A stretch of DNA of 64,000 nucleotides from Candidatus Falkowbacteria bacterium (GTDB taxonomy: Bacteria; Patescibacteriota; Patescibacteriia; CAIXNZ01). Shown one piece after another: positions 2,975 through 61,340 of the stretch. The stretch's first letter is position 1; every line of letters starts with the position of its first letter. The notes under the pieces were generated by a model. That model had not been told where the DNA came from, did no database searches, and saw nothing but the letters and a program-made list of their open reading frames with translations. A program made the position numbers and the translations under genes. The DNA lies in NCBI GenBank assembly GCA_963774955.1, contig CAVZGV010000006.1, positions 90,855-154,854 on the forward strand, in the 5' to 3' direction.

Positions 2975-3262
2975 TTATCCTCCTTGCTCTCCACCAGATA
3001 TCTGTCTGGCACCCTGAAGTTCCAAAATTATTAAATCGTGTTCCTGACCGTCCTTATCCCTCAGAATGAATTGGCCCCCATGTTTGTAATGATGATATAG
3101 CTTTATCACCAACTTGATGGCCAGCCGCATCAAAGAAGATAAAGACGTCCCCAATTCCTGCAAAATGTCATCGTAGGAACCTACTTCGCCCTCACCCAAT
3201 TTGAAAGTCACTGTCCGCCTGTCCGCTTTGTTACTGTTTCTGCTTGTCCCGCTTCCGCTCAT
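2975..3262 (-). CDS. hypothetical small protein (GC-rich islet gene)
   Basis: ORF with a GGAGG RBS 9 nt upstream of the ATG at 3262 (MSGSGTSRNSNKADRRTVTF...). Local GC is clearly above the flanks. Start chosen by RBS rather than the longest ORF. Confidence 0.4.
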   Translation of the reverse strand: MSGSGTSRNSNKADRRTVTFKLGEGEVGSYDDILQELGTSLSSLMRLAIKLVIKLYHHYKHGGQFILRDKDGQEHDLIILELQGARQISGGEQGG

Positions 3263-3503
3263 CTTCCGCTTCCTCCTTGCCCTCCGGAACTTTAGTGGAG
3301 GAGGGCTCTTTTGCGCTTGGTAAAAAAACAAATCCCACCACAAAACATCCCATTATTCCTTATTAAATAACATATTTTAATGTTTGTCAATCTGCCCACA
3401 ATCTACCCACTTGACTTTTTTAGCCAAAAGTATACAATATATATATAAAGACCCCGCAGGGTCTTTTTAAAATCGAAAAAACAAACCGATTTTCATTAAC
3501 TAT

Positions 3504-33091: not shown

Positions 33092-33181
33092 GACTTGTTC
33101 CTCCTTGATAGATTTGCAGTTTTAAATAACAAAAAACATGGCTTAAAATTAACAAGCCATGGCTATTTTGTCAATTTTAAT

Positions 33182-33919
33182 TCAACCAAAAACCATATCC
33201 TGAGTTGGCAGGAAATTTAAGCCCATGCTTTTATCTTTAGCTTTATTGAATGAATCACGAATATATTCCTGGTCAATCTGTGCCAAGAGCTTTGCTAAAC
33301 TAATATTTTTATCAAAATTCTCAGCTGGCCAAATAACAATTTTTTCATTATAGCTTAAATAAATAAACTTGGGAGTCCTTAAAAGAAAGTTATAACCATA
33401 ATATTTTAATTGCAAATTTTCCAGGACCAGATCACCGATATTACTTTCTTCATTATATTCACCTAATAAAAATTTATCCTTGTTATTATTAGCAGGCAGT
33501 AAATTTATATAGCCAACAGCTGAAGTAATTTCATATTTAACCTGCCTTATAATATTAAGCCAATATTTAATTTCCTCAGAATCATTAGCTTCTATATTCT
33601 TTAGCCCGTATTTAATCACTGCCTTAATAACATCAATAACAATTTTATACTTAAACGGCTGCCAAAAACGTAATGCCAAATTTATATCATCTCGGAATTT
33701 AAAAAAATGTTTATTATTATTAAACCATTTAATTTCACCAAATTTACGATTGTGTTCATTAACTATTTGGTTCAAATTAGTTTTATCAATATCAATAAAT
33801 TCCTCTTCTTCAAATAATCCTAGCGGTTGTGTTTTAGGCACCAAAAAATAGCCGGTTATATTTGCGCATAAAACCGCGTAAAATATAGATTCAAATTTGT
33901 CAGAATATTTAATGATCAT
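33182..33919 (-). CDS. hypothetical protein (very AT-rich)
   Basis: 245 aa, lysine/asparagine-rich. No recognisable motif. Confidence 0.45.
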   Translation of the reverse strand: MIIKYSDKFESIFYAVLCANITGYFLVPKTQPLGLFEEEEFIDIDKTNLNQIVNEHNRKFGEIKWFNNNKHFFKFRDDINLALRFWQPFKYKIVIDVIKAVIKYGLKNIEANDSEEIKYWLNIIRQVKYEITSAVGYINLLPANNNKDKFLLGEYNEESNIGDLVLENLQLKYYGYNFLLRTPKFIYLSYNEKIVIWPAENFDKNISLAKLLAQIDQEYIRDSFNKAKDKSMGLNFLPTQDMVFG

Positions 33920-34321
33920 AAGACTAGAACTCGGCTGGAATCAATAACCGCAAATGCCCATAATATTCGCAGAGTAAATTCCAGCCGGTTGTAATTATTT
34001 AATTTCCCCCTATTTAATATAATAGGGTCCATTTATGTTTATTAAATTGTTCTTGTAAAAAAAATCAATTCAAAAAAACTTACTAATACTTTACGATAAA
34101 TTGCTTTTTGTTTTCGGCTCATAATATATATTGATTAATAATTAATAAACTGTTATATTAATAAAAAGAGAGGCTTATTGCAAAATAAGTTTAGTCACTG
34201 GGTCCTAACCAGATGACTATTAATTCTCGACGAACGAAATTCACTCCGGAAACGGGGTGAGTTTTGTTTTGGGAGGGGGAAAACTTAACTCACCCGTTAT
34301 TCCAAAGTTATCTTAATAATA

Positions 34322-34927
34322 TTAAGCGTAACTATATTTTCTAATTACGGCTCTGACAACGCCCTGAACAGTAACATTTTTGGCGAAAATCGGTTTCATC
34401 GTGGAATTGGCCGGCTGTAACCTGATCCGATTAGCTTCTTTATAAAATTTCTTCAGGGTGGCAAAAGAATTATCCAGCAAAGCCACAACTACTTGTCCGT
34501 TAGCCGGATGTTCATTTTTTTCCACCACCACATAATCGCCATCAAATATACCTTCATCTATCATTGACTGGCCTTTAACCTTCAAAACATAAGATTGGGA
34601 CTCATTTTTTACCAAATCAGCAGGCACCGCAATTTTATCCTTCTGTTCCACTGCCTCAATCGGCTGACCAGCGGTAATTAAACCGGCTAAAGCTAGAAAC
34701 ACGGCTGAAGCCTTTTCATTTTCTATAACTTCAATAGATCTGGCTTCATTAGGATCGATTTTTAAATAGCCCTTTTCTTGTAAAGTCTGGATATGCTCAC
34801 AAACGGTGGCCGTTGAAGATAGTCCGAAGTGATCGCCGATTTCACGATAACTCGGTGAATATCCATATTCGGCCACAAAGGCGTTAATGTAATCGATTAT
34901 TTCTTTTTGTCTTTTGGTAAGGCTCAT
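34322..34927 (-). CDS. lexA: LexA repressor
   Basis: N-terminal wHTH, Ala-Gly cleavage site (ALAGLI) and S24 Ser/Lys dyad (KVKGQSMIDEGIFDGDYVVV ... TLKKF). Confidence 0.85.
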   Translation of the reverse strand: MSLTKRQKEIIDYINAFVAEYGYSPSYREIGDHFGLSSTATVCEHIQTLQEKGYLKIDPNEARSIEVIENEKASAVFLALAGLITAGQPIEAVEQKDKIAVPADLVKNESQSYVLKVKGQSMIDEGIFDGDYVVVEKNEHPANGQVVVALLDNSFATLKKFYKEANRIRLQPANSTMKPIFAKNVTVQGVVRAVIRKYSYA

Positions 34928-35000: not shown

Positions 35001-35357
35001 TTATTTAACCGAGCGAATCCACGCATTTAACATTTTACCTGCTTCATTCGCTAATCCAATTGCTTTATTATAATTTTCTTTTAGTAGATAGTTTAAATCG
35101 AAACTTAACAACAATTGGTATTTCAATTCCTCCAAAGAACCCATTGAGTATGAATAAAATACAAATTTATCTTTTCCCCTACGTCTAAATCCTTCGGAAA
35201 TATTTGACGGTACAGACACCGCAGCTCTTCTCATTTGTGAAACCAAGCCAAATTGTTCATCCTTAGGAAATTCCATAGTTATTTTATATACCAGTAAGGT
35301 TAACTCGTGCGCCCGTTGCCAAACTCTTAAATTTTGAATTGAGTTTAAATCAGTCAT
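35001..35357 (-). CDS. four-helix-bundle protein (family commonly found in 23S rRNA intervening sequences)
   Basis: 118 aa: LRVWQRAHELTLLVYKITMEFPKDEQFGLVSQMRRAAVSVPSNISEGF, typical of the four-helix-bundle / 'S23 ribosomal' family. Confidence 0.7.
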   Translation of the reverse strand: MTDLNSIQNLRVWQRAHELTLLVYKITMEFPKDEQFGLVSQMRRAAVSVPSNISEGFRRRGKDKFVFYSYSMGSLEELKYQLLLSFDLNYLLKENYNKAIGLANEAGKMLNAWIRSVK

Positions 35358-39972: not shown

Positions 39973-40201
39973 TATATTATACCAAATCCTTGCCTTTTCC
40001 CCTACTTTATATTCAGGCAGGCTTCTTGTAGTAATAATTGACAATTGCATTAAAATGTGTTATGATTAGGGGAAATAGTTAATTTGAGCAAGATTTTAAA
40101 ATAGAGAAAGTTGTTTTTCCACTAGAATTACAGACAAAGTCATTGAATAGCGCATATGAGCGCCAATCAGCAAAACCTCGAAAAAGCCAATTGAAAGGAG
40201 C

Positions 40202-40813
40202 TTGAGAATGAATACCGCGGAAGATACGATGAAAAAGCTGGACAGACTGCTTGAAGATACCCTGCCTGATGATTGTACGGCAAGGGGTATAGGGGCTTCC
40301 ATTATTGTTAATGAGTGCCTAGACGCTTTCTTGCAAGAAAAAGGCTGGGCTCGTGATAGCATGGGAGCAGTGACCCTGTTCGCTTCAATCATCAACCAGG
40401 GCGGGTGGAAAATCCCGAAACACATTCATGATCGAGTCTGTCGTTGTCAGCAACAGCGTCAACCTAGGACCCGCGAGCAGATCATGGCGCCGATGTGGTC
40501 TCTAATCGAAGAGTGGGGTCTCCCGACCAAGGAAGAGCCGAAAACCGAAAACGGCGTTACCTATTACACGGAAGCCGCCGGAAGCAGGAAAACCCCATTA
40601 ATCGAGATCAAGTTTTTCAAAGGTGGACAGGCGTATCACCAGGCAAAATACAATGGTATGGCCACTTTTTATCCGGAAGAAGGAACCTGGCATACGTACG
40701 TCTCCTATCCGGATCCAACGGATGAAAATTACCGCAAGGGAGATTATCTGCCTTCAACCAAAGATCGTGAAGAAGCCATTCGGATCGTTCTCGAAGCGGT
40801 CCAAAAAATGTAA
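40202..40813 (+). CDS. hypothetical protein (GC-rich islet)
   Basis: 203 aa. Local GC is clearly elevated. Hairpin terminator at 40823-40853. Confidence 0.5.
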   Translation: MRMNTAEDTMKKLDRLLEDTLPDDCTARGIGASIIVNECLDAFLQEKGWARDSMGAVTLFASIINQGGWKIPKHIHDRVCRCQQQRQPRTREQIMAPMWSLIEEWGLPTKEEPKTENGVTYYTEAAGSRKTPLIEIKFFKGGQAYHQAKYNGMATFYPEEGTWHTYVSYPDPTDENYRKGDYLPSTKDREEAIRIVLEAVQKM

Positions 40814-41011
40814 ACAACAAGGGTGTCTGTCAGGCGACAGGCACCCTTTTCAATTTTTAATATTATTAAGGCATAAAGCGTGATTGAATAATAAGATGGT
40901 GAGTTTAGAATTCCGTGCTGGCTTGACAAAAATCAAATAAATTGATATATTTAATAGTCCAAAAAAGGATGTAATTTTTAAATTCAAAACTGAAACGAGG
41001 AGGAGAAAAAA

Positions 41012-41875
41012 ATGTCAAAATCGGCAACGGTTTACACTCTTATGGCTGCATTGCGCGAGGCCGAGGATATCCTGGGTAAAGGCAGAAAGTGGCAGGCGAA
41101 AAATCCTATGCAAGCCAAGCTGATCACTGACTTTTTGAAGTACATCAGTGAAGCCGGCCAGATCAAGGAAATTGAGAGCATTGCCTCGCGTGACGCCAAA
41201 AAGATCAATGACTTTCTGGCTCAGCGCGGCTTTTCCATCCAGCTCAATCCCTTTGCTCCGACTGAATTCGGAGTGGCGGCCGTGCTGGACCTGCTGGTCA
41301 AATGGTTTCAACCCGGCAAAAAGATCCAGATCACGACCCCGAACAACCAAAAATATCCGGGTGTGCATCTGAAGCAGGGCGTGCAGTTTTTCAATGTGAA
41401 CGGTGACATGAACAAGCCCGTCGCCAAAATCAGAACCCAAAGCGACGACGAAGTCTTTATGACCATGATCGACCAGGTACCGGACGGTCTGGACCTGCTC
41501 GAATTCGCCGCCACCTTGGTAGCTCAGCTCCAGTACGGCAGAGAGGAATACGAGGGCCTGCATTTCCCCATGGTTGATTTCAAAAACCAGCCGGACATTT
41601 CCTGGCTCTTGGGCATGGCTACGACTGACAGCTCGGGCGTACCGGCTTGGATCTCCCAAGCCAAACAGGAAACCAAGTTGCGCATGAATGAGATCGGCGC
41701 CAGAGTCCAGGATGCTGTGGCCATGGCTACCATGAGATGTGCAATGATGCCGAAACAACCCCTGATCATCAATAAGCCTTTCTTGTGCATCTTCACCAGA
41801 CCGGGCCTGACCTTCCCACTGGCCGTGTTCTTTCTGGATCCCGACTGCTGGAAAAACCCGGGCAGCCTGGATTAA
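41012..41875 (+). CDS. serpin-like protein (short; C-terminal serpin motifs)
   Basis: GGAGGAG RBS. C-terminus KLRMNEIGARVQDAVAMATMRCAMMPKQPLIINKPFLCIFTRPGLTFPLAVFFLDP (cf. serpin hinge EEGTEAAAAT and FNKPFVFLMIE...SPLFMGKVVNP). LHFPMVDFKNQPDISWLLGM resembles serpin LPKFK...LGI. Only 287 aa, shorter than any canonical serpin. Confidence 0.4.
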   Translation: MSKSATVYTLMAALREAEDILGKGRKWQAKNPMQAKLITDFLKYISEAGQIKEIESIASRDAKKINDFLAQRGFSIQLNPFAPTEFGVAAVLDLLVKWFQPGKKIQITTPNNQKYPGVHLKQGVQFFNVNGDMNKPVAKIRTQSDDEVFMTMIDQVPDGLDLLEFAATLVAQLQYGREEYEGLHFPMVDFKNQPDISWLLGMATTDSSGVPAWISQAKQETKLRMNEIGARVQDAVAMATMRCAMMPKQPLIINKPFLCIFTRPGLTFPLAVFFLDPDCWKNPGSLD

Positions 41876-41942
41876 AAGTCAAAGCTTAAAAAGCTGACCC
41901 CAAAATAAACCCCAAAGGGCCCCACATCGTGGCGGCCCTTTT

Positions 41943-42824
41943 TTAATTCTCAGTTTTTAATTTATCCAGCAATTTAACTATATTCAATTCCGGATAGATG
42001 CTTATACGCTTTAAAGCCAATAAATCATCCGGATCCTGCCAGGCATCCTGATCATAGGTTAACCCGGCTTGATAACCGGCTTGTCCGGCTAATTCCTTTA
42101 TCTGGTCATTATATAAACCAAAAGGATAGCAGATCACGGTAATATCCTTACCCAATAAATCCGCCAGCATTTTTTTACTGTCTGTCAGTTCCTTAAGGGC
42201 TTCAGCACTGCTGATTTTGGTCAGCTTGGGATGCCAGACTGTATGCGAGCCGATTTCCACTAAACCGCTTTCAGCCAGTTCAATTATCTGGTCCTTGGAT
42301 AAATAATTTGATCCGCCCACGCCGGTCATGATATATATTGAGGTCTTAATATTGTATTTTTGCAAAATCGGCCAAGCCTGGGTATAAAAATCCTCATTGC
42401 CGTCATCAAAAGTAATAGCCATTATTTTTTCCTGAGGCAATTGCTTCTTAGACAAATAATCGACAACTTCGCTGACAAAAAACGGGCGGTAATCATTGTC
42501 TAATAAATCCTTTAAAATCTGCTCAAATTTCAGCGGTTCAATAAAATAACTTCTGGTAATTTTGTCGGCATTAGCGGGTGCAGTGCCGATATGATGAAAA
42601 TCCAAAATCGGCACAAAAGCCCTTTCTCCAACCTTGAGTTGGTAATACCCTTTTTTCCCCTCTTGCCCATTTTCCCCTTCTTGCTCTTCAATATTTTCCC
42701 GATTCCAAACATCATCCGCAGGCTTTGACCGCAAATCAACAAACAAATGGTCAATCAAAATAATGACCGCCACCACTAAAATTGCGATTAAAATATCAAT
42801 AGCTAATTGGTGTCTTTTCTCCAT
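41943..42824 (-). CDS. polysaccharide deacetylase (NodB/CE4 domain) with N-terminal TM anchor
   Basis: MAITFDDGNEDFYTQAWPILQKYNIKTSIYIMTG and HTVWHP (NodB motifs). Start trimmed to MEKRHQLAIDIL...; the longer ORF extension overlaps the neighbouring GC-rich gene. Confidence 0.7.
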   Translation of the reverse strand: MEKRHQLAIDILIAILVVAVIILIDHLFVDLRSKPADDVWNRENIEEQEGENGQEGKKGYYQLKVGERAFVPILDFHHIGTAPANADKITRSYFIEPLKFEQILKDLLDNDYRPFFVSEVVDYLSKKQLPQEKIMAITFDDGNEDFYTQAWPILQKYNIKTSIYIMTGVGGSNYLSKDQIIELAESGLVEIGSHTVWHPKLTKISSAEALKELTDSKKMLADLLGKDITVICYPFGLYNDQIKELAGQAGYQAGLTYDQDAWQDPDDLLALKRISIYPELNIVKLLDKLKTEN

Positions 42825-43053
42825 ATGATTTGTCTCTATTTTAGCACTGTTTGAATTATATTGACAAGAAAGTCTCAACTCGTTTCTAGGATTTGCGTGC
42901 TCCTTGACAAAACATAAAAAAAATGATATTGTTATATATTGTAAACCCATTAAGGCAGGGGGACTAAATACTGCCCAGGCTGCCACGTTCGTGGCAACCG
43001 ACAACCTTTACCACCCCGCAGTGCGGGGCCAAATCCGGAAAGGGAGGAAGAAC

Positions 43054-43791
43054 ATGAGAGCGAAAGATTTGATGTGTGCCAAGGCTAAGGACGGAATCCT
43101 ATTGATCGAAGGATTAAAGGATTACCACTTGAGAGTGCTGGGCGCAACCATGCCCTGCAGTTCACATGGGACTGATACGGTCAATTCATTTTACCTGACA
43201 CCGATTAAAGACCAGAAAGGTCTGGTGTCTGTCCATGTTTGCGCAGCTAACCACGCTAAAGTAGCATGTTTTTTCCTGAACGTTGATTTTAGCGGTCAGG
43301 AACCGATCATTGACCTGGAAAATCAATGGCTGCCTCAAGCGGACCGGTTGGGTCAGGTCTATGACAGGGGCATCGAGGTAATGATTGAGAGTATCCTTTT
43401 CTCCTCGCGGCTGTGCTTTGATAGCCGACTGCCCGAGAACTATGTGGCGGGTGATGTTCTCTGTCGCTACCTGATCGGCGAAATCAGCGCCGAGGATGTC
43501 CACCAAGCAGTCACCAACTTGGCTGATGAAATCAGCGCCCGGGCCAAACTGCCTGAGCTGGAAGAATCAGTCAAACGCTATCAGACTGAACTTGAAACCG
43601 TCACCGCGGATCGAGATGAATTCAAACACGTAATCCATGAGAAAACCCAAAAACTCGATTTAATGGCCGACTTCACCAATCACTTACGCGATTTGGTCAA
43701 ACAACTCGAAAAAAGTCTGGCCTCAAAGTGGTTCCTGAGCAAAAAAGACAAGCAACTGCTGGAATCTTTGAACCAGGTAAGCTGGCGCTAA
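43054..43791 (+). CDS. hypothetical protein with C-terminal coiled coil (GC-rich islet)
   Basis: GGGAGG RBS before MRAKDLMCAKAKDG. TTGACA promoter at ~42944. Structured GC-rich 5' leader containing the cccgcagtgcgggg hairpin. Terminator at ~43824-43857. Confidence 0.5.
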   Translation: MRAKDLMCAKAKDGILLIEGLKDYHLRVLGATMPCSSHGTDTVNSFYLTPIKDQKGLVSVHVCAANHAKVACFFLNVDFSGQEPIIDLENQWLPQADRLGQVYDRGIEVMIESILFSSRLCFDSRLPENYVAGDVLCRYLIGEISAEDVHQAVTNLADEISARAKLPELEESVKRYQTELETVTADRDEFKHVIHEKTQKLDLMADFTNHLRDLVKQLEKSLASKWFLSKKDKQLLESLNQVSWR

Positions 43792-43904
43792 GGCCAGAAA
43801 TCTAACCAAAACAAATAAAAGCGCGAGCCAATCCTGGTTCGCCTTTTTTTATATAAATTTTTATGGCTGCGGTAAAAACAACGTAGTTGTAACTTTTTCT
43901 AAAC

Positions 43905-48215: not shown

Positions 48216-50112
48216 TTAACCACTGCTTTTAAAGTTAGTTTTTTCAGGTTTTAAATTTCCAAACCCCTGATCTTGTGCCAAGGCCCTGAAGGTCGGCGAA
48301 ATCGCTGCCAACTCATCAAAACTACTGGCAATCGCTGTCACATGACCGCAGGAATCTCCGTTGGAATCGATCATGATGAATTTGTCGCAGATTCTTCTGA
48401 CCGTGTTCAAACGGTGAGTGACAATCAGTGCGCCTCTGTCTTTGGTCAACACTTTTGCCAGACCAGTCCTGAACCAGCTTCTCGGTGGTGGAATCTAGCG
48501 AGCTGGTCGCCTCGTCAATGATCATGAACTTCGGCGCTTTCATGACTGCGCAACCAATGCCCAGACGCTGGGATTGACCGCCGGAAAGTTTAATGCCGTT
48601 ACGACCGACTTTGGTGTCCAGACCTTCAGTCAACCTTTCGCCAAAATCAATCTGCAGCATTTTCATGGTTTGCCAGACCTGATCATCACTGATCTGCAGT
48701 TTGGCTGCATCAGGCAGGCCATAAAGCATGTTGTAGCGGATAGTGCCGTCAAGAATCTGCGCCTGCTGAGGCACATAGCCGATTAAAGACAGCCAATTTT
48801 GCAGATCCAAATCGCACAGATTTTGGCCGTTGATCCGGATCATGCCCTGACTCGGATCCATATAGCGCAGCAATAAACGCATGATCGTGGTTTTGCCCAC
48901 GCCACTGGAACCGATGAGAGCGACTTTTTCACCAGGAGCGATCTTGAAGGAAATCCGGGAAATAACCGATTTGGTCTGTTCAGCTTCCTTGTGCGGATAG
49001 CTGTAACCGACCGCGTCAAATTCCACTTCAATTGGCTGATCTGGCTCAATCTTTTTAGTTTGGGACGCATACTCAAGTCCTACCGGCAACGTCAGAGCTT
49101 CTTTCATGGCCAGGATGGACGGGGTGACGAAATTAATCTGATGTTCCAGATGTCCGATCCGCCACAGGTTATCGACTATTTGCCGACTCCAGCCAAACAA
49201 GGGATAAAGCAGCCCCAGGGCCATATGTCCATGATAAACCTGATACGCTCCCCAGCTGATTAATCCTAGCAGTAAACCGTAATCGACAAAACCGCGCCAG
49301 ATTACCTGGTAAATAAACCAGAGCCAAAAAGTCCTGTCCGGAACAATCGCCTCCTGAAACTTGTCACAGATGGTCGAAACTTCCTCGTCTTCCTTGGCAA
49401 AATTTTTCACCTTTTCAACGTTATCCAATCTTTCAACCAGATAACGATGAAGGTCACGCCATTTTTTATCAATCGGCAGGCAGACCTGTAAAACTTTCCG
49501 GTTTAAAACCAGACTCCAGGTCAGATGAATGGCCAGCATAACCGTGACGATCAAACCGGCATAGGGACTTAGAAACCATAAGGCGCCAAAGGGTAAAAAC
49601 AGCATCAAGATTGCTTCCACGCCTTCAAACAGCATCATGGCTTCCAGCTGAAAAACTCTTTCCCGGCCCTTTTTGATATTGGCTTCATTAAGCTGGTTAT
49701 GCTCGTCAATATGAGTGCCCAATGATTTTTCGAAAAAAAGTTCGGCCGTGCGCTTATCCAGCTGGCCAATATTTTCCCCGAAAAGATACTCCCGGGCCCG
49801 CATGCTGATCAGCTGGATCAGTTGACTGACAATAACGGTGACTGCATAAAGGCAGATGCCCAAGATGACCAGATTAGCATTCATGGCCTTGGGGTTTAAA
49901 CCATTGAAAACGTAACTTAACGTCCAGGGACCGACAACCATGACGGCGCTGCCAATGGCTTTGACAATTGCCATTTTCTTGGCATACTTTTTCCCCGCAG
50001 GGTTGATCAATTCTTGCCAAACCCAGGTGAACATCGCCTTCATAGCGCGGACTTCTTTGAAATAGTCCCGCAAATTTGTGGCTGCCGCACGATCCAGTTC
50101 TACGTCTTTCAT
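48216..50112 (-). pseudogene. fused TMD-NBD ABC exporter (MsbA-like), frame-disrupted near 48455-48475
   Basis: Walker A GSSGVGKTT, signature LSGGQSQR and Walker B FMIIDEATSSLD in one frame. The D-loop/H-loop tail ALIVTHRLNTVRRICDKFIMIDSNG is in the +1 frame (ORF 48216..48452). RBS gggaggaaaaaATG at 50112. Confidence 0.7.
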
Positions 50113-50591
50113 TTTTTCCTCCCTTTGCCCGCCAAAGCCTTGTGCGAAGGCGGGCTTTTCAAGGTACAACCTAGTTTGCTTTAAATCAGGATAAACAAAG
50201 ACTCTCTTAGCCTGATTTGGCCGAGAGAGTCTTTAACAATATATTTAAACCTAATTTTAGCTTTAAAAATATTATCCGCACAAAAAACTCCTATGGCCAT
50301 ATTTAACCCAAGCCCCGCCAAAAACTGGTGTTACTGTATAAAAAGTTAAATTTTTATGACAATTAAACATAATATTATTGGATTTAAATCTTAAGAATTC
50401 ATTTCACTATAACATATTAACAAGAATATGTCAAGTAAGCGCTGAAAACTTATTACTTAATATAAGACGGCTAAACATTTTAAATATTACACTTCAAATC
50501 GTCCTTAGCCGTTGACAAAAATAAATTTTAGTGTTAAAATTGCATCAAGCTTTAAACATCAAATCGTAAGACACTTTCAAGGAGGACAAAA

Positions 50592-50906
50592 GTGGCCAGA
50601 AAGCAAGCAATAATCAGGGTGACCAAAAACAATTATCAGCAGGTGATCACCACTCTGCCTGAAAGCAGATTGGAACAGATTTTAAAAAATCTCTTGGTTG
50701 GGATCATCGGCAACTATCTGTACAATCTCAAACACCCGGATAACAGACTGATCCCGCCGATGTTGCCCTCCGGCCAAAGCCTCGAAAAACTCAATGAAGC
50801 TGTGGGCAGCCTGGTTCTCTCCGGAAAGAAAATGAAAATTGTCGATGCCTACGAACATATACCAGACCGAGAAATCATCAGGCTGACACTGGCAGCAAGC
50901 GAATAA
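50592..50906 (+). CDS. hypothetical small protein (GTG start, GC-elevated)
   Basis: aaggaggacaaaaGTG RBS; 104 aa. Terminator hairpin plus T8 at ~50925-50960. Confidence 0.4.
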   Translation: MARKQAIIRVTKNNYQQVITTLPESRLEQILKNLLVGIIGNYLYNLKHPDNRLIPPMLPSGQSLEKLNEAVGSLVLSGKKMKIVDAYEHIPDREIIRLTLAASE

Positions 50907-57639: not shown

Positions 57640-57915
57640 ATGGATTTTTGGGTTGCGCATCCCGGTTTTGGGGGAATCATTTTCCTGGTGTGTATCGCGT
57701 GTTTTCCGCGCCTTACCACGCTCTTCGCCGTGGCCACGCCATTCGGCTGTCTGGCCTGGATCGGCTGGGTCTTTGCCCCGCATCTGCTGGTCGCCATCCT
57801 GGCCACCTACATGTACTGGCACACCAATCCGGTCCTCTGCGTCATCGCCTGGTTCTTCGCCTTAGCCGGCACCGGAGCTGAGGCATCGACAGCATCAAAA
57901 AAATCAGGGGGTTAA
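57640..57915 (+). CDS. small membrane protein (very GC-rich)
   Basis: 91 aa with 2-3 TM helices. Clearly GC-rich in an AT-rich genome; terminator hairpin plus T7 follows (cgagccg...cggctcgttttttt). Confidence 0.5.
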   Translation: MDFWVAHPGFGGIIFLVCIACFPRLTTLFAVATPFGCLAWIGWVFAPHLLVAILATYMYWHTNPVLCVIAWFFALAGTGAEASTASKKSGG

Positions 57916-60677: not shown

Positions 60678-61340
60678 ATGGCGGATGAACTGATGGTGCG
60701 GCAATTGTCTGAATTGGCCAAAACCAAAAAGGTCACCTTGACGGTCATGGTTCTGGACAAATCAGGGTCCATGGCCAATTTCGGCACTGCCCCGATGGAC
60801 ATGGTCAATGAGATTATCAGCAAACTCAAAGCTGAAAATAATGACCAAAACGAATACTATTTCGGACTGGTCAGTTTCGCAGACATGATGAAACTCGAAA
60901 TCCCCATTAACAAAGTTGACCAAATCGACCCATTGCTGAGTTACAACCCCGACGGCAACACCCAGCTCTATAAGACGGCGAGAAACGTCATTTCCTCCCT
61001 GCTGAATCTGGTGCATGATCTGCCCGAGGAACTACAAAGCAACATTAAGGTCGTAGTCGGCGTCGTCTCTGACGGAATGGACAATCGCTCGCCCCGCGAC
61101 CGATATCCCGAGAAACTCCAGCAGACCAGCAAACGAGCCCTGAAACACGGGTTTGAACTACTGGCCTACGGTATCGGCATCGATGCCACTCGTCTGGCTT
61201 ATGCTATGGGATTCCTCGAAGCCAAGGGATTTACCCTTTCGGGGCAGGCCAGAAGCTTCGTAGATGTGGGCGCCTCAGTGTGCGAATTCTCCACCTGCGG
61301 AGGATGGAGAAAAAATTCCACCCCGCCCAGCAATCCGTAA
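60678..61340 (+). CDS. von Willebrand factor type A (VWA) domain protein (GC-rich)
   Basis: MIDAS motif VMVLDKSGSM (DxSxS) and downstream SDGMDN; 220 aa. Strong terminator at 61345-61380. Confidence 0.65.
   Translation: MADELMVRQLSELAKTKKVTLTVMVLDKSGSMANFGTAPMDMVNEIISKLKAENNDQNEYYFGLVSFADMMKLEIPINKVDQIDPLLSYNPDGNTQLYKTARNVISSLLNLVHDLPEELQSNIKVVVGVVSDGMDNRSPRDRYPEKLQQTSKRALKHGFELLAYGIGIDATRLAYAMGFLEAKGFTLSGQARSFVDVGASVCEFSTCGGWRKNSTPPSNP

What the first reader, a model, noticed from the sequence alone, without database searches (positions are those of the whole stretch)
40100..43860. GC-rich islet encoding three hypothetical proteins, one with serpin-like C-terminal motifs
Genes at 40202-40813, 41012-41875 and 43054-43791 are much more GC-rich than the genome and are peppered with spurious antisense ORFs. 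Each has its own strong RBS and hairpin terminator. The native AT-rich polysaccharide deacetylase gene lies between them on the other strand. The 287-aa product of 41012 ends ...NEIGARVQDAVAMAT-MRCAMMPKQP-LIINKPFLCIFTRPGLTFPLAVFFLDP. This matches the serpin hinge / reactive-centre loop / s1C-s4B-s5B pattern (EEGTEAAAAT ... FxxDHPFLFxI...LFxGRVxxP). Its preceding LHFPMVDFKNQPDISWLLGM resembles the serpin LxLPKFK...LGI strand. It is ~60 aa shorter than any known functional serpin. That makes it a possible minimal serpin-like inhibitor acquired horizontally.
Basis: partly seen in the sequence, partly recalled or inferred. Interest (0 to 1): 0.6.

Follow-up and report, generated by a model that had tools for sequence, protein, structure and literature searches.

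The report
Compact 287-residue serpin in GC-rich patch
The middle gene of this GC-rich patch encodes a very small serpin-fold protein (287 residues, about 100 fewer than usual); it belongs to a large family in uncultured bacteria and giant phages for which I found no published description, and it is probably a cytoplasmic protease trap, though that is untested.

Summary
Three + strand genes (40208-40813, 41012-41875, 43054-43791) have 49-53% GC against about 39% for the window. Their tetranucleotide correlation with the window is 0.31-0.39, against 0.83 on average. Each has its own promoter-like site, ribosome-binding site and terminator hairpin. A compositionally native deacetylase gene lies between them on the other strand.

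This is not a fragment. At least 892 clusters (50% identity) of about 285-300 residues exist, with a conserved hinge, a variable distal loop and no signal peptide. Members occur in Patescibacteria (candidate phyla radiation, CPR), other bacterial genomes assembled from metagenomes, and jumbo-phage contigs, one beside rIIA/rIIB.

The two flanking genes have no homologues at all and are unrelated additions. The serpin gene keeps its position next to the same neighbour in a related genome, so it is not a recent arrival. Inhibitory function is inferred, not shown.

The parts
40038..40066 (+). Promoter-like site for gene 1 (TTGACA-17-TATGAT, with TG extension)
   Evidence: 11 of 12 consensus matches. 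This is a consensus match only.
40208..40813 (+). Gene 1: GC-rich gene with no homologues, 201 aa, function unknown. An alternative TTG start lies at 40202.
40819..40848 (+). Terminator hairpin of gene 1 (13-bp stem plus T run)
40923..40951 (+). Promoter-like site for the mini-serpin gene (TTGACA-17-TATATT, with TG extension)
   Evidence: 11 of 12 consensus matches
40997..41005 (+). Ribosome-binding site GAGGAGGAG, 6 nt upstream of the ATG
   Evidence: Sequence
41012..41875 (+). Mini-serpin gene, 287 aa, no signal peptide
41018..41074 (+). Residues 3-21: strand plus a single helix. The first half aligns to serpin s6B/helix B. Helix A, which would precede it, is absent.
   Evidence: DSSP of the model; hhalign mapping
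41105..41233 (+). Residues 32-74: counterparts of helix E, strand s1A and a shortened helix F. They include I65-N66, which align to alpha-1-antitrypsin (a1AT) I157-N158.
   Evidence: N66 is kept in 116 of 129 relatives
41267..41305 (+). Residues 86-98: strand s3A, ending in W98 (aligns to the breach tryptophan W194 of a1AT)
   Evidence: W in 128 of 129 relatives
41687..41722 (+). Residues 226-237: hinge N-E-I-G-A-R-V-Q-D-A-V-A (P18-P7 if E227 is P17)
   Evidence: E227 and G229 align with a1AT E342 and G344. Column entropy is 1.33 against a protein mean of 2.20.
41723..41755 (+). Residues 238-248: distal reactive-centre loop MATMRCAMMPK. This is the probable bait, with the scissile bond near R242-C243-A244.
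   Evidence: Most of this stretch (to residue 244) falls in the model's only low-confidence segment, 232-244. Column entropy for residues 238-246 is 3.01; position 242 is R in 53 and K in 10 of 129 relatives.
41756..41839 (+). Residues 249-276: strands s1C, s4B and s5B, including P256-F257 (aligns to a1AT P369-F370)
41914..41947 (+). Terminator hairpin plus T run after the mini-serpin gene. It overlaps the stop codon of the convergent deacetylase gene.
   Evidence: dG -22.2 kcal/mol, z -4.0; sequence
41943..42824 (-). Polysaccharide deacetylase gene. Its composition is native, and it is context rather than part of the feature.
   Evidence: PF01522, E 7.7e-30. GC 0.396 and tetranucleotide correlation 0.90. 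58.7% identical to its counterpart in L001.
42904..42932 (+). Promoter-like site for gene 3 (TTGACA-17-TATTGT), followed by a GC-rich leader of about 120 nt
43054..43791 (+). Gene 3: GC-rich gene with no homologues, 245 aa. The C-terminal third is coiled-coil-like. Function unknown.
   Evidence: ORF; ribosome-binding site AGGGAGGAAG. Only a self-hit. Only weak coiled-coil-type hits elsewhere.
43823..43842 (+). Terminator hairpin of gene 3

Best explanation
Gene 41012-41875 encodes a true but drastically reduced member of the serpin fold. It keeps beta-sheets B and C, strands s1A, s3A, s5A and s6A of sheet A, an exposed reactive-centre loop (RCL, residues about 226-248) and the hinge. It has no counterpart of helix A, helix C or half of helix D. 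A single helix (residues 8-21) stands where helices B to D would be. Strand s2A is reduced to a few residues, and helices F, G/H and I are shortened.

It has no signal peptide, so it acts in the cytoplasm. The most likely mechanism is the canonical serpin one. A target protease cleaves the variable distal loop near R242-C243. The hinge, which has small side chains at P14, P12, P9, P8 and P7, then inserts between s3A and s5A as a new strand. This traps the acyl-enzyme.

What is shown: the fold, the collinear homology, the conservation pattern and the size of the family. What is inferred: inhibition, the scissile bond and the target.

The gene belongs to a large family that moves between lineages. 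Members occur in CPR bacteria, other bacterial genomes assembled from metagenomes, and jumbo phages. At this locus, however, it has been inherited vertically since the split from a related genome.

The two flanking GC-rich genes are unrelated, lineage-specific additions of unknown function. Each is transcribed on its own.
For: Fold:
- The AF2 model has pLDDT 88.3 and pTM 0.86. The only segment below 50 is 232-244.
- The top 50 Foldseek hits listed are almost all serpin entries, with E about 1e-9.

Sequence:
- The A2 profile against PDB sequences hits PAI-1 at E 4.8e-9.
- hhalign of A2 against three canonical serpins gives probability 95.2%, E 2.6e-8 and 274 aligned columns.
- Serpin landmark residues are retained: a1AT N158 aligns to N66, W194 to W98, P289 to P186 (129 of 129 relatives), E342 to E227, G344 to G229 (128 of 129), and P369-F370 to P256-F257.

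Inhibitor-like pattern:
- The hinge is among the most conserved stretches (column entropy 1.33).
- The distal loop is among the most variable (3.01).
- The strands that follow are conserved (1.49).

Family:
- 892 clusters at 50% identity score E<=1e-30, and most are 280-310 aa long.
- None of 129 members has an N-terminal hydrophobic run.
- Tandem paralogues occur in L010 and L018.

Phage carriage:
- Six IMG/VR contigs of 26-435 kb (five above 150 kb) encode full-length relatives that keep the hinge.
- In L027 the gene lies directly upstream of RIIA and RIIB homologues (E 2.5e-79 and 1.3e-68).

Vertical inheritance at this locus:
- The gene is adjacent to the same glycosyltransferase gene in L001.
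- Its divergence matches that of its neighbours.
Against: - No biochemical data exist for any family member.
- This protein scores below Pfam's curated Serpin cut-off (15.3 against 27 bits).
- P14 is Ala rather than the usual Thr or Ser, and P13 is Arg.
- In this protein's own clade P10 is Asp (Ser in 111 of 129 relatives). If the loop inserts, that charged side chain would point into the core.
- The distance from P17 to the s4B proline is 27-34 residues (mode 31), against 28 in a1AT and PAI-1. From general serpin knowledge, extra length on the P side weakens trapping. I could not tell on which side of the scissile bond the extra residues lie.
- Whether the native state is metastable without helices A, C and D and most of s2A is unknown.
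- I could not inspect model coordinates, so the four-stranded sheet A is deduced from DSSP and alignment only.
Confidence: 0.6

Rival explanations
1. It is a serpin-fold protein that does not inhibit proteases. It would be a binding, chaperone or storage-type protein, like ovalbumin, Hsp47 or PEDF. On this view the loop is conserved for another interaction.
For: The hinge departs from the inhibitory consensus: P14 is Ala, P13 is Arg, and P10 is Asp in this clade. The loop is typically 1-4 residues longer than in a1AT or PAI-1. Structural elements thought to tune metastability (helix D, s2A, a long helix F) are missing or shortened. Part of the distal loop is fairly conserved for a bait region (P247 in 100 of 129, K248 in 53 of 129).
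Against: Non-inhibitory serpins usually lose the small-residue hinge. Here G229, A230, S/D234, A235 and A237 are among the best conserved positions in about 130 diverse sequences, while residues 238-246 vary. That is the pattern expected of a conserved insertion machine with diversifying specificity. Tandem paralogues fit the same picture. From general knowledge, an antithrombin variant with Ala at P14 has been crystallised (PDB 2hij appears), so Ala at P14 can be accommodated in a serpin.
Confidence: 0.25
2. It is a truncated remnant or pseudogene of a full-length serpin gene and has no function of its own.
For: It is about 100 residues shorter than typical serpins. Significant HMMER-only hits cover only about the C-terminal half of the protein (residues 134-279 at best).
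Against: 892 or more clusters share the same length (about 285-300 aa) and a conserved N-terminus, MSxTxxxYPIVxAL. The missing segments are internal as well as N-terminal. AF2 folds the whole chain confidently. The gene has its own promoter-like site, a strong ribosome-binding site and a terminator. Identity of 62.5% over the full length with the syntenic L001 copy shows that it has been maintained.
Confidence: 0.03
3. The three GC-rich genes form one horizontally acquired functional cassette, for example an inhibitor with partner proteins or a small defence island.
For: All three share an atypical composition (mutual trinucleotide correlation 0.58-0.76, against 0.30-0.49 with the window). They lie within 3.7 kb on the same strand.
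Against: Genes 1 and 3 have no homologue anywhere, so they never co-occur with the roughly 900 mini-serpin clusters. No neighbour is conserved across 18 loci. In the syntenic L001 locus the serpin is present without either gene. A compositionally native deacetylase gene on the opposite strand separates them. Each has its own promoter-like site and terminator. There are no PADLOC hits.
Confidence: 0.07

Closest known systems
Canonical inhibitory serpins (Pfam PF00079; for example PAI-1, alpha-1-antitrypsin, and the prokaryotic serpins miropin, tengpin and thermopin)
   Different: The protein has about 287 residues rather than about 370-400. There is no counterpart of helix A, helix C or half of helix D. 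One helix stands where helices B to D would be. Strand s2A is vestigial, and helices F, G/H and I are shortened. P14 is Ala and P13 is Arg, and H334 is replaced by Gln, which is nearly invariant in the family (124 of 129). This protein falls below Pfam's curated threshold. There is no signal peptide.
Poxvirus CrmA/SPI-2, the serpin described as 'a minimal serpin' (PMC7863939). By my recollection it is 341 aa and lacks helix D.
   Different: The protein here is about 54 residues shorter still and also lacks helices A and C and most of s2A. It is prokaryotic or phage-borne rather than from a eukaryotic virus. Its target is unknown, whereas CrmA inhibits caspases and granzyme B (PMC7863939).
Uncharacterised proteins of about 290 aa in genomes assembled from metagenomes, for example the hypothetical protein A2Y82_04155 of Candidatus Buchananbacteria RBG_13_36_9 (P0004)
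   Same: They are the same family, 35-86% identical over the full length. Some already carry an automatic partial PF00079 hit in databases.
   Different: Nothing of substance differs. These are the relatives, all annotated as hypothetical. I found no paper that describes them.

Membership tests
Serpin superfamily (fold level) | Three-dimensional serpin fold, with sheets A, B and C packed on a helical cluster | tested here: met
Serpin superfamily (sequence level, Pfam PF00079) | Score at or above Pfam's curated gathering threshold (27 bits) | tested here: not met
   This protein scores 15.3 bits, E 0.012, over residues 200-261 only. Relatives do better: 23 of 31 hit at E<0.01, the best at 5.9e-9. 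Family profiles reach E 4.8e-9 against PDB serpins and hhalign gives probability 95% over 274 columns.
Serpin superfamily (architecture) | Full complement of secondary-structure elements: helices A to I and a five-stranded sheet A in the native state | tested here: not met
   DSSP shows only four substantial helices: 8-21, 32-48, 62-71 and 160-171. hhalign leaves a1AT 1-45, 63-97 and 117-124 without counterpart, so helices A and C are absent and helix D and strand s2A are vestigial. Element boundaries were recalled from memory, and I could not inspect coordinates.
Inhibitory serpins | Exposed reactive-centre loop with the hinge consensus: P17 Glu, P15 Gly, P14 Thr/Ser, and small residues at P12-P9 | tested here: inconclusive
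   P17 Glu is present in 89 of 129 relatives and P15 Gly in 128 of 129. P14 is Ala (119 of 129), which is small but not Thr or Ser. P12 is Ala or Val, P10 is Ser (111 of 129; Asp in this protein), and P9 is Ala (111 of 129). The loop is disordered in the model. This is compatible with loop insertion but is not the textbook motif.
Inhibitory serpins | Metastable native state, with a stressed-to-relaxed transition and a covalent, SDS-stable complex with the protease | not testable with these tools
   This needs a protease panel, stoichiometry of inhibition, and thermal stability before and after loop cleavage.
Inhibitory serpins | P17-to-P1 length of 17 residues, so that the protease is carried to the far pole | tested here: inconclusive
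   The scissile bond is unknown. The distance from P17 to the s4B proline is 27-34 residues (mode 31), against 28 in a1AT and PAI-1. Which side of P1 carries the extra residues cannot be decided.
Horizontally acquired genomic islet | Atypical composition together with absence from related genomes at the same locus | tested here: inconclusive
   Atypical composition is met for all three genes. Absence from the related genome L001 is met for genes 1 and 3 but not for the serpin. The serpin is present next to the same glycosyltransferase gene and has diverged as much as its neighbours.

The most novel reading that the evidence does not exclude
This family may be the smallest working serpin machine: four helices and a four-stranded sheet A that still performs loop insertion. 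It may be deployed in the cytoplasm in phage-host conflict. Jumbo phages carry it, once directly beside rIIA/rIIB. The loop often has Arg or Lys at the likely P1/P2 position. It could therefore block Arg/Lys-specific protease effectors of defence systems, such as caspase- or CHAT-like and trypsin-like proteases. Cellular copies, such as this one in a CPR bacterium, might conversely neutralise phage or host proteases.
Probability: 0.15. Interest if true: 0.85.

Novelty: new variant of a known kind. Interest (0 to 1): 0.6.

Why it matters
Serpins are a textbook case of a metastable protein machine, and the field has asked which parts of the fold are indispensable. CrmA, which is about 341 residues long and lacks helix D, has served as the minimal example.

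A natural, widespread family of about 290 residues would lower that limit by about 55 residues. It lacks helices A, C and D and most of strand s2A, yet it keeps the hinge, the breach tryptophan and the loop. It offers a compact scaffold on which to test what the stressed-to-relaxed transition really needs.

The family has probably been overlooked for technical reasons. Most members fall below Pfam's threshold. The comprehensive serpin phylogeny also removed sequences more than 25% shorter than the median (PMC8233489).

Its presence in CPR bacteria and jumbo phages suggests a role for protease inhibition in the biology or conflicts of these organisms. No such role has been examined.

For genome annotation, the result shows that this GC-rich patch is a mosaic. 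It combines one old, compositionally persistent gene with two newer genes that have no homologues.

Tried and rejected
- Structured RNA as the cause of the GC-rich patches: Rfam at gathering thresholds finds only five tRNAs in the window and nothing in 40-44 kb. The ORFs are far too long for chance. Rejected.
- High expression as the cause of GC3 richness: the other GC3-rich genes are an ABC transporter, a VWA protein and hypothetical proteins, not translation or chaperone genes. Not supported.
- A conserved partner or target protease gene next to the mini-serpin: 18 loci were clustered all-against-all and no shared neighbour emerged beyond close synteny.
- Carriage on sequenced phages or plasmids: tblastn against INPHARED and PLSDB found no match. 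Only IMG/VR contigs did.
- Archaeal (DPANN) membership: three genome records are labelled Woesearchaeota, Pacearchaeota or Nanoarchaeia. However, L006, which is syntenic with the 'Nanoarchaeia' contig, encodes bacterial ribosomal protein bL19, and the 'Woesearchaeota' contig encodes a bacterial pilin N-methylation motif. I do not claim cross-domain distribution.
- AFDB50 fold search: the library was unavailable.
- The apparently gene-free 2.4 kb upstream of the L003 homologue is an artefact of scaffold gaps; ORFs are present and there are no Rfam hits.
- Literature searches for serpins in Patescibacteria or DPANN, and for mini, short or truncated prokaryotic serpins, found nothing relevant.


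Full report
**Observation**

The window is a bacterial chromosome segment. It encodes GyrB, DnaE, GatB, ThrRS, MiaB, a Mur ligase and ThiI, and its GC content is 39.2%. The nearest relatives of the gene of interest come from Patescibacteria (candidate phyla radiation, CPR) genomes assembled from metagenomes, such as Candidatus Buchananbacteria.

Their GC is 0.49, 0.53 and 0.49. Their GC3 is 0.52, 0.69 and 0.56, against a mean of 0.417 (sd 0.086) over 60 ORFs. Their tetranucleotide correlation with the window is 0.31-0.39. The mean for 800-bp windows is 0.83 (sd 0.094), and the deacetylase gene lying between them scores 0.90.

Each gene has a near-consensus promoter-like site of the form TTGACA-17-TATxxT, a purine-rich ribosome-binding site and a terminator hairpin. 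Two corrections are small. Gene 1 probably starts at ATG 40208. The deacetylase ORF probably starts at 42824. The patch is not unique in the window. An ABC transporter gene (48322-50169) and a VWA-domain gene (60678-61340) belong to the same GC-rich compositional class.

**What the 287-residue protein is**

- On its own it gives only a sub-threshold Pfam Serpin hit: E 0.012, 15.3 bits against a cut-off of 27, over residues 200-261. It also gives weak phmmer hits to PAI-1.
- It has 31 relatives of about 285-297 residues in the 5.8-billion-protein collection. Of the 31 aligned sequences (the window protein and 30 relatives), 23 hit Pfam Serpin at E<0.01, the best at 5.9e-9.
- A 31-sequence profile hits serpins in the PDB at E 3e-6. 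A 129-sequence profile reaches E 4.8e-9, with alignments spanning query 101-279.
- An AlphaFold2 model built on the family alignment is confident (pLDDT 88.3, pTM 0.86). Its single disordered segment, 232-244, is where a reactive-centre loop (RCL) would be.

That test fails to refute the idea.

**Anatomy**

I ran hhalign with the 129-sequence alignment against alpha-1-antitrypsin (a1AT), PAI-1 and ovalbumin. The result was probability 95.2%, E 2.6e-8 and 274 aligned columns, with window residues 1-281 aligned to a1AT 45-394.

These a1AT segments have no counterpart:

| a1AT residues | Element missing |
|---|---|
| 1-45 | N-terminus and helix A |
| 63-97 | end of helix B, helix C, first half of helix D |
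| 117-124 | end of strand s2A |
| 176-181, 201-205, 311-321 | shorter gaps |

DSSP of the model shows only four substantial helices, at 8-21, 32-48, 62-71 and 160-171. Taken together, the mapping is as follows:

| Window residues | Serpin element |
|---|---|
| 3-5 | s6B |
| 8-21 | one helix standing where helices B to D would be |
| 32-48 | helix E |
| 54-59 | s1A |
| 62-71 | a short helix F |
| 86-98 | s3A |

After s3A the normal order follows: s4C, s3C, s1B-s3B, a fused helix G/H, s2C, s6A, s5A, the loop, s1C, s4B and s5B.

Serpin landmark residues are kept across the family:

| a1AT residue | Window residue | Conservation in 129 relatives |
|---|---|---|
| N158 | N66 | 116 |
| W194 | W98 | 128 |
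| P289 | P186 | 129 |
| E342 | E227 | 89 |
| G344 | G229 | 128 |
| P369-F370 | P256-F257 | 122 and 127 |

H334 of a1AT is replaced by Gln, which is nearly invariant in the family (124 of 129).

I could not open the coordinates. The inference that sheet A has four strands in the native state therefore rests on DSSP and alignment. The element boundaries come from memory.

**Is it a working gene and a family?**

An exhaustive HMMER scan of 1.84 billion representative proteins finds 892 clusters (50% identity) at E<=1e-30 and 1448 at E<=1e-10. Among the best 150 listed, almost all are 280-310 residues long and match the profile end to end. The N-terminus is conserved as MSxTxxxYPIVxAL. This excludes a truncated pseudogene.

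None of 129 members has an N-terminal hydrophobic run, so the proteins are cytoplasmic.

Conservation follows the pattern expected of an inhibitory serpin:
- The hinge N-E-x-G-A-R-[AV]-x-S-A-V-A is one of the least variable stretches (entropy 1.33, against a mean of 2.20).
- The following nine residues (238-246) are among the most variable (3.01).
- Strands s1C and s4B are conserved again (1.49).
- Position 242 is Arg in 53 and Lys in 10 of 129 relatives, and it is followed by a small residue.

Counting 17 residues from E227 puts P1 at C243. R242 is therefore at P2, or at P1 if the register is off by one.

**Departures from the textbook**

P14 is Ala rather than Thr or Ser, and P13 is Arg. P10 is Asp in this protein's clade. 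The loop is typically 1-4 residues longer than in a1AT or PAI-1, on an unknown side of the scissile bond.

I therefore hold the fold assignment at about 0.95 and the suicide-inhibitor mechanism at about 0.6. A non-inhibitory serpin-fold protein is the main rival, at about 0.25.

**Context and history**

There is no conserved neighbour across 18 loci. The gene stands alone, and it occurs occasionally as a tandem pair, in L010 and L018.

In a related CPR genome (L001) the homologue lies next to the same 557-residue glycosyltransferase gene. Identity is 62.5% for the serpin, 61.7% for the glycosyltransferase and 58.7% for the deacetylase. The serpin was therefore already at this locus in the common ancestor and has since been inherited vertically.

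Even so, the gene is GC-richer than its surroundings in nearly every low-GC genome sampled, by 0.05 to 0.24. It is not richer in high-GC genomes.

Family members also turn up in genome records labelled Gammaproteobacteria, Pseudomonadales, Acidobacteria, Terriglobia and Saccharibacteria.

Six IMG/VR viral contigs of 26-435 kb (five above 150 kb) also carry the gene. In some of these the gene's GC matches that of the contig. In L027 it lies immediately upstream of RIIA and RIIB homologues (E 2.5e-79 and 1.3e-68). The phage copies keep the full architecture and the hinge.

A patchy distribution, discordant composition and phage carriage together point to repeated horizontal movement of the family. 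The persistence of high GC3 after long residence in an AT-rich genome remains unexplained.

Three genome records carry archaeal labels. I do not trust them. L006, which is syntenic with the 'Nanoarchaeia' contig L021, encodes bacterial ribosomal protein bL19, and the 'Woesearchaeota' contig L014 encodes a bacterial pilin N-methylation motif.

**The two flanking genes**

Both are singletons. Each finds only itself among 5.8 billion proteins. Neither has any family, defence-system or PDB-sequence match.

They are absent from the syntenic L001 locus. They are separated by a compositionally native gene on the other strand, and they are transcriptionally autonomous.

They are long ORFs with good translation signals, so they are probably real genes. 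Nothing links them functionally to the serpin.

**Comparison with what is known, and novelty**

The protein works like, and is homologous to, serpins. It passes the fold test. It fails Pfam's curated threshold and it fails the full-architecture test. I therefore file it as a new variant of a known kind rather than an ordinary member.

The closest characterised reduced serpin is CrmA, described as 'a minimal serpin' (PMC7863939). By my recollection CrmA has 341 residues and lacks helix D. The protein here is about 54 residues shorter.

I found no paper on such proteins. The comprehensive serpin phylogeny removed sequences more than 25% shorter than the median length (PMC8233489), which would have excluded this family. 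The paper library is not exhaustive, so an earlier description cannot be ruled out.

**Verdict**

The horizontal-transfer claim and the idea of a single islet are only partly supported. Interest is moderate to high. A natural serpin of about 290 residues would make the question of the minimal serpin machine directly testable. Its presence in CPR bacteria and jumbo phages hints at unexplored protease biology. Function remains entirely inferred.

Noticed in passing
window 48322-50169 (-), 60678-61340 (+), 57640-57915 (+), 2975-3343 (-), 50592-50906 (+): Other ORFs share the same GC-rich, atypical composition. They are an ABC transporter (GC3 0.56), a VWA-domain protein (GC3 0.63, tetranucleotide correlation 0.25) and three short hypothetical ORFs, one of them with GC 0.58. 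The genome seems to hold a second compositional class of accessory genes.
   Followed up: partly
window 33100-34400: This is the most deviant tetranucleotide stretch of the window (z up to 5.4), and it is deviant in the AT-rich direction. It contains a 245-aa ORF (33182-33919, -) with GC 0.285. I did not examine it.
   Followed up: no
window 35001-35357 (-) and 34322-34927 (-): A 118-aa ORF is 54% identical to the L001 gene that carries Pfam bAvd / 23S_rRNA_IVP. That domain marks the accessory protein of diversity-generating retroelements. Next to it is a LexA/S24-like gene, 84% identical to its L001 counterpart. I did not look for a reverse transcriptase or template/variable repeats.
   Followed up: no
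window 42933-43053: Gene 3 has a GC-rich leader of about 120 nt between its promoter-like site and its ribosome-binding site. The leader has obvious self-complementary stretches such as CCCCGCAGTGCGGGG. I neither folded it nor compared it with other sequences, and Rfam finds nothing there.
   Followed up: no
L027 5001-9190 (IMG/VR contig of 390,884 bp) and L028: A mini-serpin homologue sits directly upstream of RIIA and RIIB homologues on jumbo-phage-sized contigs. The adjacency may be meaningful, for example as anti-defence, or it may be coincidental.
   Followed up: partly
L010 5001-6780; L018 4098-5870: Tandem pairs of diverged mini-serpin paralogues occur in a Pseudomonadales-labelled and a Saccharibacteria-labelled genome record. 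I did not compare their loops.
   Followed up: no
L014, L016, L021 and L006: Three genome records that carry the family are labelled as DPANN archaea. However, L006, which is syntenic with L021, encodes bacterial ribosomal protein bL19. L014 encodes a bacterial type IV pilin N-methylation motif. The bins are probably mislabelled or mixed.
   Followed up: partly
P0028, P0055, P0094, P0147, P0155, P0164, P0170, P0171: A minority of family members carry an extra N-terminal region of 90-130 residues ahead of the mini-serpin domain. I did not determine whether this is a real extra domain or an over-extended gene call.
   Followed up: no
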